From the IMG/VR virus record IMGVR_UViG_2541047759_000001: DNA of 64,000 nucleotides. One strand, 5' to 3'. The notes beneath the pieces were generated by a model. The model saw only the letters and a program-made list of their open reading frames with translations, did not search any database and was not told where the DNA came from. Below, in pieces: positions 21,900 to 22,106 of the stretch. This DNA is from a virus. Lineage: Duplodnaviria; Heunggongvirae; Uroviricota; Caudoviricetes. How positions within the stretch are numbered: the first letter of the stretch is position 1; every line of letters starts with the position of its first letter. Both the position numbers and the translations under genes were made by a program.

Positions 21900-22106
21900 C
21901 AACAGGTTACGGGGCGGCGACCTCGCGGGTTTTCGCTATTTATGAAAATTTTCCGGGAACCATGTCCGGTTTCTCTTCAAGTTAACTATATGAAAAATAA
22001 AAAAAGAGGTCTTCTGTGAACCGGGCATGCACAAAAAATAGACATGTAAGCCGGACATGACCGGTTTTGTTGTGATTGTGAAGTGAGAGTTTTTGCGAGG
22101 TGAGGA
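21900..22106 (+). other. Prophage cos site: lambda-type cosN (cohesive end GGGCGGCGACCT at 21912-21923) plus cosB-like region
   Basis: gttacgGGGCGGCGACCTcgcgggttttcgctatttatgaaaattttccgg matches the recalled lambda left-end/cos sequence; ATGTCCGG-type repeats follow; lies immediately upstream of the Nu1 homolog. Confidence 0.8.

What the first reader, a model, noticed from the sequence alone, without database searches (positions are those of the whole stretch)
21900..22106. Resident prophage carries the same cosN as the satellite: candidate helper-satellite pair on one chromosome
The prophage cos (cohesive end at 21912-21923) and both island cos copies share cosN and flanking bases, and the island's capsid genes are paralogs of this prophage's E, D and Nu3. 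The prophage is therefore the obvious candidate helper, located about 5 kb from the satellite.
Basis: inference. Interest (0 to 1): 0.65.

Follow-up and report, generated by a model that had tools for sequence, protein, structure and literature searches.

The report
Lambda-type cos site beside known PICI
The flagged stretch is the DNA-packaging (cos) site of a lambda-like prophage lying 4.8 kb from a near-copy of the well-studied E. coli satellite EcCICFT073. Sharing the cutting site is generic, and published deletions in strain CFT073 name a different prophage as helper. However, the satellite's second cos site copies the terminase-binding region (cosB) of this prophage's cos type.

Summary
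GGGCGGCGACCT lies at 21912-21923 (+), just upstream of the prophage TerS/TerL genes. It recurs in the island at 60889-60900 (+, cos1) and 61628-61639 (-, cos2). The island capsid-like genes are 47/36/37% identical to the prophage E, D and Nu3 region.

The system is already known. The island (51232-62458, between roxA and phoQ) is 97% identical to EcCICFT073, and its RppA is 100% identical. The prophage is the orthologue of CFT073 'phi2' (potB/potC site).

Published genetics (PMC6092414) weigh against the "obvious helper" reading. Deleting phi2 had no effect on island transfer. Deleting phi4, a lambda-like prophage at icd about 8 kb beyond the window's right end, abolished it. The cosN core occurs in 79% of complete E. 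coli genomes, so sharing it identifies nothing.

Island cos2 matches the whole cosB of this prophage type: 127/148 bases to the resident prophage and 143/148 to the propagated phage PhiR12_1. PhiR12_1's TerS is 100% identical to the prophage's. I found no report of this in the searchable literature.

The prophage remains a plausible second-class helper acting through cos2, but this is unproven.

The parts
1..46400 (+). Lambdoid prophage integrated between potC and potB, orthologue of CFT073 'phi2'. The window's left edge cuts int. It has xis, RecE-like exonuclease, CI(S24)/Cro, CII-like protein, replication initiator, Q, tRNAs, lysis genes, cos, and a full head and tail module.
   Evidence: 97-99.9% identical to the CFT073 potB prophage, except the immunity region (5585-6661) and the lysis region (15394-21861). 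Domains. The phi2 deletion primer maps at 46401.
21877..21911 (+). cosQ-side region of the prophage cos. The core CGGGTCCTTTCC is at 21881-21892.
   Evidence: 33 of the 50 bases upstream of cosN match lambda, including the cosQ core. The cosQ definition is from PMC6092414 Fig. S5.
21912..21923 (+). cosN, the 12-base cohesive end GGGCGGCGACCT.
   Evidence: Exact match to the first 12 bases of the lambda genome.
21924..22059 (+). Prophage cosB: an I2-like stretch identical to lambda up to +45, then three R-like elements. They are CATGTCCGG at 21961-21969, AACCGGGCATG at 22019-22029 and GCCGGACATG at 22050-22059, with an A/T-rich stretch between the first and second.
   Evidence: Repeat analysis. 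Identical in CFT073 phi2. This cosB family occurs in 1185 of 5426 E. coli genomes.
22107..22616 (+). TerS, 169 aa. The C-terminal part is Nu1-like and the N-terminal DNA-binding domain is divergent.
   Evidence: Pfam Phage_Nu1 matches only model positions 62-163. 100% identical to PhiR12_1 TerS. 40% identical to phi4 TerS, over the C-terminal 100 aa only.
22588..24516 (+). TerL, gpA-type.
   Evidence: GpA_ATPase and GpA_nuclease domains. 94% aa identity to the TerL of the proven helper phi4.
51232..62458 (+). EcCICFT073-family PICI between roxA (ycfD) and phoQ, bounded by imperfect 75-nt direct repeats (51232-51306 and 62384-62458).
   Evidence: 97.3% identity over 97% of its length to the CFT073 island, at the same site. 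Repeats are family D3. int, alpA, D5/P4-type primase and ssb found.
59000..60828 (+). Island capsid-like genes: MCP (59000-60055, = c1499), decoration protein (60067-60402, = c1500) and a Nu3-like 137-aa protein (60415-60828).
   Evidence: Pfam Phage_cap_E and HDPD. Pairwise comparisons with the prophage proteins. phrog_53 C-terminal match.
60858..60935 (+). Island cos1: cosQ, cosN (60889-60900) and the start of an island-specific cosB. This is the left arm of a 78-nt inverted repeat.
   Evidence: Matches the 'CFT073 cos1' sequence in PMC6092414 Fig. S5.
60990..61424 (+). rppA (redirecting phage packaging), 144 aa.
   Evidence: 100% identical to the CFT073 protein. Carries the R21-T22 residues mutated in PMC6739421.
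61492..61670 (-). Island cos2, inverted: cosQ, cosN (61628-61639) and a complete phage-type cosB with three CCGGACAT(G) elements (for example 61582-61590).
   Evidence: 143/148 identical to PhiR12_1 cos and 127/148 to the resident prophage. Identity falls to 4/27 immediately after the third R element. Matches 'CFT073 cos.2' in Fig. S5.

Best explanation
Positions 21900-22106 are the cos site of a lambda-like prophage inserted between potC and potB, the orthologue of CFT073 phi2. It comprises cosN plus a cosB of the form I2-R3-I1-R2-R1, upstream of TerS. The neighbouring 'satellite' is a 97%-identical copy of the characterised PICI EcCICFT073.

Both carry the lambda cosN because every element packaged by a gpA-type large terminase must carry it. 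The identity is therefore family-wide and not specific to this pair.

The documented mobilisation route of this island runs as follows (shown in the literature, inferred for this strain):
1. A Nu1-type lambdoid helper activates alpA.
2. The island excises and replicates.
3. RppA heterodimerises with the helper TerS DNA-binding domain.
4. That complex directs the helper terminase to the island's own cosB at cos1.
Known helpers of this type are the icd prophage phi4, lambda and phi80.

The potB-type prophage in the window was dispensable, and on its own insufficient, for transfer from CFT073. My committed reading is that it is not the principal helper. It belongs to a second class of lambdoid phage that can package the island directly, without RppA, through cos2, because cos2 is a faithful copy of that class's cos. 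The cos2 route is inferred here, not shown.
For: Identity of the parts:
- Island against CFT073.
- RppA 100% identical.
- The prophage equals phi2, by the published deletion primers and 97-99.9% nucleotide identity.

Literature:
- Deleting phi2 had no effect and deleting phi4 abolished induction and transfer; lambda and phi80 also act as helpers.
- EcCICFT073 has two cosN sequences identical to phi4's.
- cos1 is essential and cos2 is not, with lambda and phi80; RppA-TerS recognises the cosB of cos1.
- The helper lies at icd.
- The phi4 cosB and terS strings from Fig. S5 map to the CFT073 icd prophage.

Genericity of cosN: the 56-nt core is present in 79% of genomes.

The cos2 link:
- 143/148 identity to PhiR12_1 cos and 127/148 to the resident prophage. 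Identity ends exactly after R1.
- The resident TerS is 100% identical to PhiR12_1's. The same TerS protein, with a cos2-like cosB, is found in an AH20K059 prophage.
- TerL is 94% identical to phi4's.
- The TerS N-terminus lacks the lambda alpha3 stretch and the Rpp-contact residues.
Against: No experiment exists for this strain.

In CFT073 phi2 was present when deletion of phi4 gave <1 transductants. phi2 shares the same TerS, and its cosB is identical to the window's across the aligned region. So that prophage did not mobilise the island through cos2 under mitomycin C. This could mean the class lacks the alpA inducer, or it could mean CFT073 phi2 is not SOS-inducible.

Deleting cos2 raised lambda- and phi80-mediated transfer. 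This shows that cos2 is not needed with those helpers, but it says nothing about a positive role.

The co-occurrence of cos2-type islands with this cosB type is only a lower bound: at least 26 of 64 genomes, against a 21% background. It is confounded by shared ancestry.
Confidence: 0.6

Rival explanations
1. One reading: the resident potB-type prophage is the working helper of the island in this strain. On SOS induction it activates the island, and its terminase packages island concatemers into its own capsids.
For: - cosN is identical.
- cos2 is a cognate-type cos for its TerS.
- The prophage looks complete: all head and tail ORFs are full length, and a replication initiator, Q and lysis genes are present.
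- Unlike CFT073 phi2, it has a 212-aa HTH+S24 repressor and no IS200 after Q.
- Its late module is 91-97% identical to the propagated phage PhiR12_1.
- In the related strain HM670 the icd prophage has an interrupted O gene, a TerL annotated with an internal stop and a partial J.
Against: - The orthologous prophage is neither necessary nor sufficient in CFT073.
- Its early region outside the immunity cassette is 97-99.9% identical to CFT073 phi2. If phi2 lacks the alpA inducer, this prophage probably lacks it too.
- The TerS DNA-binding domain is not Nu1-type, so the RppA/cos1 route is doubtful.
- Up to 38 of the 64 genomes with a cos2-type island have no prophage with this cosB.
Confidence: 0.3
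2. The juxtaposition is coincidental and cos2 is a relic. The island picked up a PhiR12-type cos by recombination with such a phage. cos2 has no present function, and the neighbouring prophage is irrelevant to the island, or is merely a target of RppA interference.
For: - cos2 is dispensable, and its deletion increases transfer by lambda and phi80.
- Lambdoid prophages with this cosN are in 79% of genomes and this cosB type is in 21%, so a neighbour of this kind is expected often.
- The region between the inverted cos arms is rearranged, and rppA is lost, in a related island in strain B771.
Against: - cos2 keeps 143/148 identity to a live phage's cos, and identity stops exactly at the end of the last R element. 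That fits selection on the functional unit.
- A plasmid carrying cos2 is packaged even by non-cognate lambda and phi80, and the double cos deletion is worse than deleting cos1 alone.
- cos2 is conserved between the window and CFT073.
Confidence: 0.1

Closest known systems
EcCICFT073 with its helper prophage phi4 in E. coli CFT073 (Fillol-Salom et al. 2018, PMC6092414; 2019, PMC6739421)
   Same: Same island (97% nucleotide identity, same roxA-phoQ site, RppA identical, cos1 and cos2 identical). Same idea of a resident lambdoid prophage sharing cosN with the island. The same flanking potB prophage is present in CFT073.
   Different: The proven helper is the icd prophage, not the potB prophage. 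It has a Nu1-type TerS and a different cosB. The window's potB prophage has a different immunity cassette (S24 CI) and lysis region from CFT073 phi2, and it lacks phi2's IS200.
Helper-embedded PICI 11capE in prophage 50icd (PMC10111431)
   Same: A Gram-negative PICI with an E-like capsid gene that shares an extended cos block with its lambdoid helper (258 bp at 90% identity). This is analogous to cos2 against the potB/PhiR12-type cos.
   Different: 11capE is integrated inside a helper late gene. Here the island lies 4.8 kb outside the prophage, in its own chromosomal site.
Lambda versus phage 21 packaging specificity (cosB/TerS cassettes; established knowledge from the Feiss laboratory)
   Same: cosN and TerL are conserved, while cosB and the TerS DNA-binding domain are swapped as a unit. 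The window prophage and phi4 are 95-98% identical on both sides of a replaced 21960-22670 segment.
   Different: This cosB (CATGTCCGG elements) and its TerS N-terminus form a further specificity type. Only the first 80 nt of the query match the phage 21 record.
P4/P2 and cos-type SaPIs such as SaPIbov5
   Same: Satellites that carry the helper's cos site and are packaged by the helper terminase. SaPIbov5 also encodes a capsid-protein homologue.
   Different: Unrelated gene content. EcCICFT073 additionally uses RppA to retarget TerS, and with lambda it is packaged into full-size capsids.

Membership tests
Lambda-type cos site | 12-base cohesive-end sequence at cosN identical or near-identical to lambda's | tested here: met
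   GGGCGGCGACCT at 21912-21923 equals bases 1-12 of NC_001416.
Lambda-type cos site | Lies immediately upstream of the small and large terminase genes (Nu1/gpA families) | tested here: met
   TerS at 22107-22616 (Phage_Nu1, partial match). TerL at 22588-24516 (GpA_ATPase and GpA_nuclease).
Lambda-type cos site | cosQ upstream, and a cosB with three R elements around an A/T-rich IHF-type spacer | tested here: met
   The cosQ core is conserved with lambda. Three CATGTCCGG-type elements lie at +50, +108 and +139, one of them in the opposite orientation to the other two. Protein binding is not testable here.
Lambda-type cos site | Cut by terminase in vivo to give cohesive ends | not testable with these tools
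   Indirect only. PhiR12_1 is deposited as a phage genome with K-12 MG1655 as host, and it has the same TerS and an 87%-identical cosB.
Gram-negative PICI (EcCICFT073 type) | int, alpA and pri-rep co-oriented, about 11-15 kb, no lysis or tail genes, no terS | tested here: met
   int, AlpA, D5_N/DUF5906 primase and SSB found; no terminase domain found; 11.2 kb.
Gram-negative PICI (EcCICFT073 type) | Own attachment site, not used by prophages | tested here: met
   roxA-phoQ intergenic site, the same as in CFT073, HM670 and 30345_1#220.
Gram-negative PICI (EcCICFT073 type) | rpp gene next to an island-specific cos | tested here: met
   RppA is 100% identical to CFT073's. cos1 lies 90 nt upstream.
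Gram-negative PICI (EcCICFT073 type) | Helper-dependent induction, packaging and high-frequency transfer | not testable with these tools
   Shown for the CFT073 copy in PMC6092414.
Helper phage of EcCICFT073 | Its removal abolishes island induction and transfer | not testable with these tools
   For the orthologous CFT073 phi2 the published result is negative: the deletion left transfer at 5.19e3 (primer mapping).
Helper phage of EcCICFT073 | Nu1-type TerS DNA-binding domain with the RppC contact residues (alpha1 I11-F12-G13; alpha3 S43, A44, I47, Y50, A51) | tested here: not met
   The Pfam Nu1 match starts at model position 62. The alignment shows H-L-S at the alpha1 positions and an 11-residue gap in alpha3 (contact residues).
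Helper phage of EcCICFT073 | gpA-type TerL and a cosN compatible with the island's | tested here: met
   cosN identical. TerL 94% identical to phi4 TerL.
Helper phage of EcCICFT073 | Encodes the inducer of alpA | not testable with these tools
   The inducer was unidentified in 2018, and no later identification was found.
Capsid-forming PICI (cf-PICI) | Complete head module of its own (portal, protease, connectors) plus its own terminase | tested here: not met
   Only MCP, D-like and Nu3-like genes are present. No portal, protease or terminase was found.
Helper-embedded PICI | Integrated inside a late gene of the helper prophage | tested here: not met
   potB, potA, pepT and roxA separate the island from the prophage.

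The most novel reading that the evidence does not exclude
EcCICFT073-family islands may carry two cos sites because they exploit two classes of lambdoid helper.
- cos1 plus RppA would capture helpers with Nu1-type TerS (lambda, phi80, the icd prophage).
- cos2 would be a near-exact copy of the cos of potB/PhiR12-type phages, whose TerS has a different DNA-binding domain. That terminase could then package the island directly.

On this reading the long-unexplained, apparently counter-productive cos2 is a helper-range extension, and the prophage in this window belongs to the second helper class.
Probability: 0.35. Interest if true: 0.5.

Novelty: already known. Interest (0 to 1): 0.3.

Why it matters
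As flagged, the finding rediscovers a published system. EcCICFT073 is the model Gram-negative PICI, and it is already known to share cosN with a resident lambdoid helper.

The useful correction is that cosN identity and adjacency do not identify the helper. The proven helper in CFT073 sits on the other side of the island, outside the window.

The useful addition is a concrete explanation for cos2, whose role the original papers left open. They described the island cosB regions as completely divergent from phage cosB, but they compared them only with lambda, phi80 and phi4. If the explanation is right, one satellite uses both protein-mediated retargeting and direct cos mimicry to widen its helper range. 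That bears on how such islands, and the virulence or defence genes they carry, spread among E. coli lineages with different prophage sets.

Tried and rejected
- **cf-PICI and helper-embedded PICI.** Rejected on gene content and location.
- **Phage 21-type cosB.** Rejected, because only the first 80 nt match the phage 21 record.
- **Identifying the source strain, to inspect its icd prophage.** HM670 and SFAD3 match 100% in the island and terminase pieces, but the spacing between them differs by 19 nt. The HM670 assembly also has many frameshifts in its tail genes. Isolate 30345_1#220 has the CFT073-type phi2 rather than the window's version. The strain was not identified, so the state of its icd prophage is unknown.
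- **Literature searches.** I searched for an identified alpA inducer, for work on CFT073 phi2 inducibility, for the PhiR12 phages and for any later discussion of cos2. Nothing useful turned up.
- **Per-genome co-occurrence of cos2 islands and this cosB type.** This could only be bounded from counts: at least 26 of 64 genomes, odds ratio 2.6, Fisher p=5e-4, not corrected for phylogeny.
- **RppA against this TerS by BLASTP.** No meaningful similarity.

Full report
**1. What is at the coordinates**

Positions 21912-21923 read GGGCGGCGACCT, the 12-base cohesive end of phage lambda.

- The 45 bases that follow are identical to lambda. The cosQ core (CGGGTCCTTTCC, 21881-21892) lies upstream.
- Between cosN and the next gene there are three CATGTCCGG-type elements: 21961-21969, then 22019-22029 and 22050-22059 in the opposite orientation. 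An A/T-rich stretch follows the first. This is the lambda cosB layout R3-I1-R2-R1.
- The next genes are a small terminase (22107-22616) and a gpA-type large terminase (22588-24516).

The interval 21900-22106 is therefore the complete cos site of a lambda-like prophage. The same 12-mer occurs at 60889-60900 (+) and 61628-61639 (-). That is three matches against 0.26 expected, and 0 of 100 shuffles reached three.

**2. The prophage**

It fills the window from the left edge, which cuts int, to about 46400. potB, potA, pepT and roxA follow.

- It is 97-99.9% identical to the prophage between potC and potB of E. coli CFT073. The exceptions are a swapped immunity cassette (5585-6661), a mosaic lysis region (15394-21861) and an IS200 downstream of Q that CFT073 has and the window lacks.
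- Gene content looks complete: xis, RecE-like exonuclease, a 212-aa HTH+Peptidase_S24 repressor, Cro, a CII-like protein, a replication initiator, Q, two tRNAs, holin/lysozyme/Rz, and full-length head and tail ORFs.
- Its late module is 91-97% identical to Escherichia phage PhiR12_1, a deposited phage genome with K-12 MG1655 listed as host.

**3. The satellite**

The element at 51232-62458 is bounded by imperfect 75-nt direct repeats. It lies between roxA and phoQ.

- It encodes an integrase, AlpA, a D5/P4-type primase, SSB, an E-like capsid protein, a D-like decoration protein, a Nu3-like protein and a 144-aa HTH protein.
- It is 97.3% identical, over 97% of its length and at the same site, to EcCICFT073, the model Gram-negative PICI.
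- The 144-aa protein is 100% identical to RppA.
- The two cos copies are the published cos1 (+, upstream of rppA) and cos2 (-, downstream of rppA).
- They form a 78-nt inverted repeat, 60858-60935 and 61593-61670.

**4. What is already published about this pair**

From PMC6092414:
- EcCICFT073 is transferred after mitomycin C induction of CFT073.
- The genome has about five prophage-like elements, of which #3 is the island itself.
- Deleting #4 abolished induction and transfer (<1). Deleting #1, #2 or #5 had no effect; the #2 deletion gave 5.19e3 against 8e3 for wild type.
- Lambda and phi80 also mobilise the island.

I mapped the published deletion primers.
- The phi2 primers flank the potB/potC prophage of CFT073, and one of them matches the window at 46401.
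- The phi4 cosB and terS sequences from Fig. S5 map to the CFT073 prophage at icd.
- PMC10111431 independently places the helper at icd.

icd lies about 8 kb beyond phoQ, just outside the right end of this window. The proven helper, however, is the prophage on the other side. The orthologue of the prophage in the window was neither necessary nor sufficient in CFT073.

From PMC6739421, the mechanism is as follows. RppA forms a heterocomplex with the N-terminal DNA-binding domain of a Nu1-type TerS. That complex recognises the island-specific cosB of cos1 and no longer recognises the phage cosB. cos1 is essential with lambda and phi80, and cos2 is not.

**5. How diagnostic is a shared cosN?**

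It is not diagnostic. A 56-nt query centred on cosN finds 7760 places in 4293 of 5426 complete E. coli genomes, with up to 8 per genome. The cosQ-cosN-I2 block is also shared with lambda, 21 and about 100 phage records.

The capsid homology is distant as well (47/36/37% identity), and c1499/c1500 are dispensable for transfer and interference.

**6.

Compared with phi4, the window prophage is 98.5% identical upstream of cos and about 95% identical from TerL onward. The segment 21960-22670, which holds cosB and TerS, is replaced.

- The two TerS proteins share only their C-terminal 100 residues, at 40% identity.
- The window TerS matches the Pfam Nu1 model only from position 62.
- It lacks part of lambda helix alpha3 and the residues that RppC contacts.
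- TerL is 94% identical, and the differences cluster at the N-terminus.

This is a classical cosB/TerS specificity cassette.

Island cos2, read on the minus strand, carries this cassette's cosB.
- 127 of 148 bases match the resident prophage, from cosN to the end of the third R element.
- 143 of 148 match PhiR12_1 and a prophage in strain AH20K059.
- Only 65-70 of 148 match phi4, lambda or cos1.
- Identity falls to 4 of 27 immediately after the last R element.

PhiR12_1's TerS is 169/169 identical to the window's. The resident prophage therefore encodes the TerS that is cognate for a cos2-type cosB. The two papers that discuss cos1 and cos2 call the island cosB regions completely divergent from phage cosB, but they compared them only with lambda, phi80 and phi4.

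**7. Distribution**

This cosB family occurs in 1185 of 5426 genomes. Of these, 1147 have it in phage context and 64 in cos2 (island) context. At least 26 of the 64 therefore have both, against a background of about 21% (odds ratio 2.6, uncorrected for phylogeny). Up to 38 island-bearing genomes lack such a prophage.

The layout of potB prophage, island and icd prophage recurs in CFT073, HM670 and isolate 30345_1#220.

**8. Most likely mechanism**

Shown: the identities of cos, TerS/TerL, the island, RppA, cos1 and cos2.

Taken from the literature for the 97%-identical island: helper-dependent alpA activation, excision, replication, RppA-TerS retargeting to cos1, and packaging into full-size capsids.

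Inferred here:
- With a potB/PhiR12-type phage, the RppA/cos1 route is doubtful, because the TerS domain that RppA grips is different.
- That terminase should instead bind cos2 directly, nick the shared cosN and package leftwards through the concatemer.

Unknown: whether this phage class can switch the island on. In CFT073 there was no induction without phi4. However, CFT073 phi2 has a 139-aa repressor with no S24 domain, whereas the window's prophage has an S24 repressor. The negative result may therefore reflect non-induction of phi2.

I put about 0.3-0.35 on this prophage being a functional helper in its strain. I put about 0.6 on the reading that it is not the principal helper and that the shared cosN is generic.

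**9. Verdict**

The system is already known. The only new element is the cos2 match to this TerS type's cos, which is modest but directly testable.

Noticed in passing
window 21912 and 60889: The prophage cosN and island cos1 are co-oriented and exactly 38,977 bp apart. From general knowledge, lambda packages about 38-51 kb. Termination needs cosQ and cosN but not cosB. In-situ packaging from an unexcised prophage could therefore end at cos1 and yield a particle carrying the prophage late genes, potBA-pepT-roxA and most of the island. This is speculative. The similar gene order in CFT073 suggests a comparable spacing there, but I did not compute it with a tool.
   Followed up: partly
window 60858-60935 / 61593-61670; L008 5942-6530: cos1 and cos2 form a 78-nt inverted repeat (91% complementary) around rppA. 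In a related PICI of strain B771 (yejO/narP site, RepA helicase instead of primase) the segment between the arms is inverted. There rppA is reduced to a 3' remnant, and both cosN copies read GGGCGTCGACCT. This suggests recombination between the arms.
   Followed up: partly
window 5585-6661: The immunity cassette differs from CFT073 phi2. The window has a 212-aa HTH_3+Peptidase_S24 repressor (5711-6349, minus strand) and a P22-Cro-like gene. CFT073 has a 139-aa protein without an S24 domain and a YdaS-like regulator. CFT073 also has an IS200 after Q that the window lacks.
   Followed up: partly
L004 (HM670 2128000-2177900), L003, L010: A lambda-like prophage sits at icd, about 8 kb right of the island, in CFT073, HM670 and isolate 30345_1#220. 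In HM670 the O gene is split by an IS3 element, TerL is annotated with an internal stop and J is partial. The proven helper type may therefore be dead in some island-bearing strains.
   Followed up: partly
window 58395-58425 and 60835-60865: A terminator-like hairpin followed by TTTTTTACGGG(G/T)CCT is repeated (31 nt, 94% identity), once after ssb and once just before cos1. The second copy overlaps cosQ. The first may be a cosQ-like relic.
   Followed up: no
window 45053-45153 / 46102-46202, 45227-45895: 101-nt direct repeats (85% identity) bracket a reverse-oriented class I SAM methyltransferase. It sits between two truncated tail-fibre-assembly genes at the prophage right end, and looks like a moron or cassette insertion.
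   Followed up: no
window 13476-13726: Two tRNA genes lie downstream of Q. ARAGORN calls the first Met (CAT), while RefSeq annotates the equivalent gene in HM670 as tRNA-Ile. The second is Arg (TCT). CFT073 phi2 has three tRNAs at this position.
   Followed up: no
window 58285-58591: The only sizeable difference between this island and the CFT073 copy. The CFT073 copy encodes a PerC-family regulator here, and the window has a different, shorter sequence.
   Followed up: no
window 53164-54450: This 428-aa ORF in the mechanical ORF list is probably spurious. In CFT073 the region is annotated as several small genes, including an Icd-like cell-division inhibitor and a YlcI/YnfO family protein.
   Followed up: no
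window 14640-14975 (-), 15221-17197 (+): The prophage carries accessory genes between the tRNAs and the lysis genes. One is an IraM-type anti-adaptor. The other is an intact 658-aa DUF1737/SASA esterase, which is a truncated pseudogene in CFT073 phi2.
   Followed up: no
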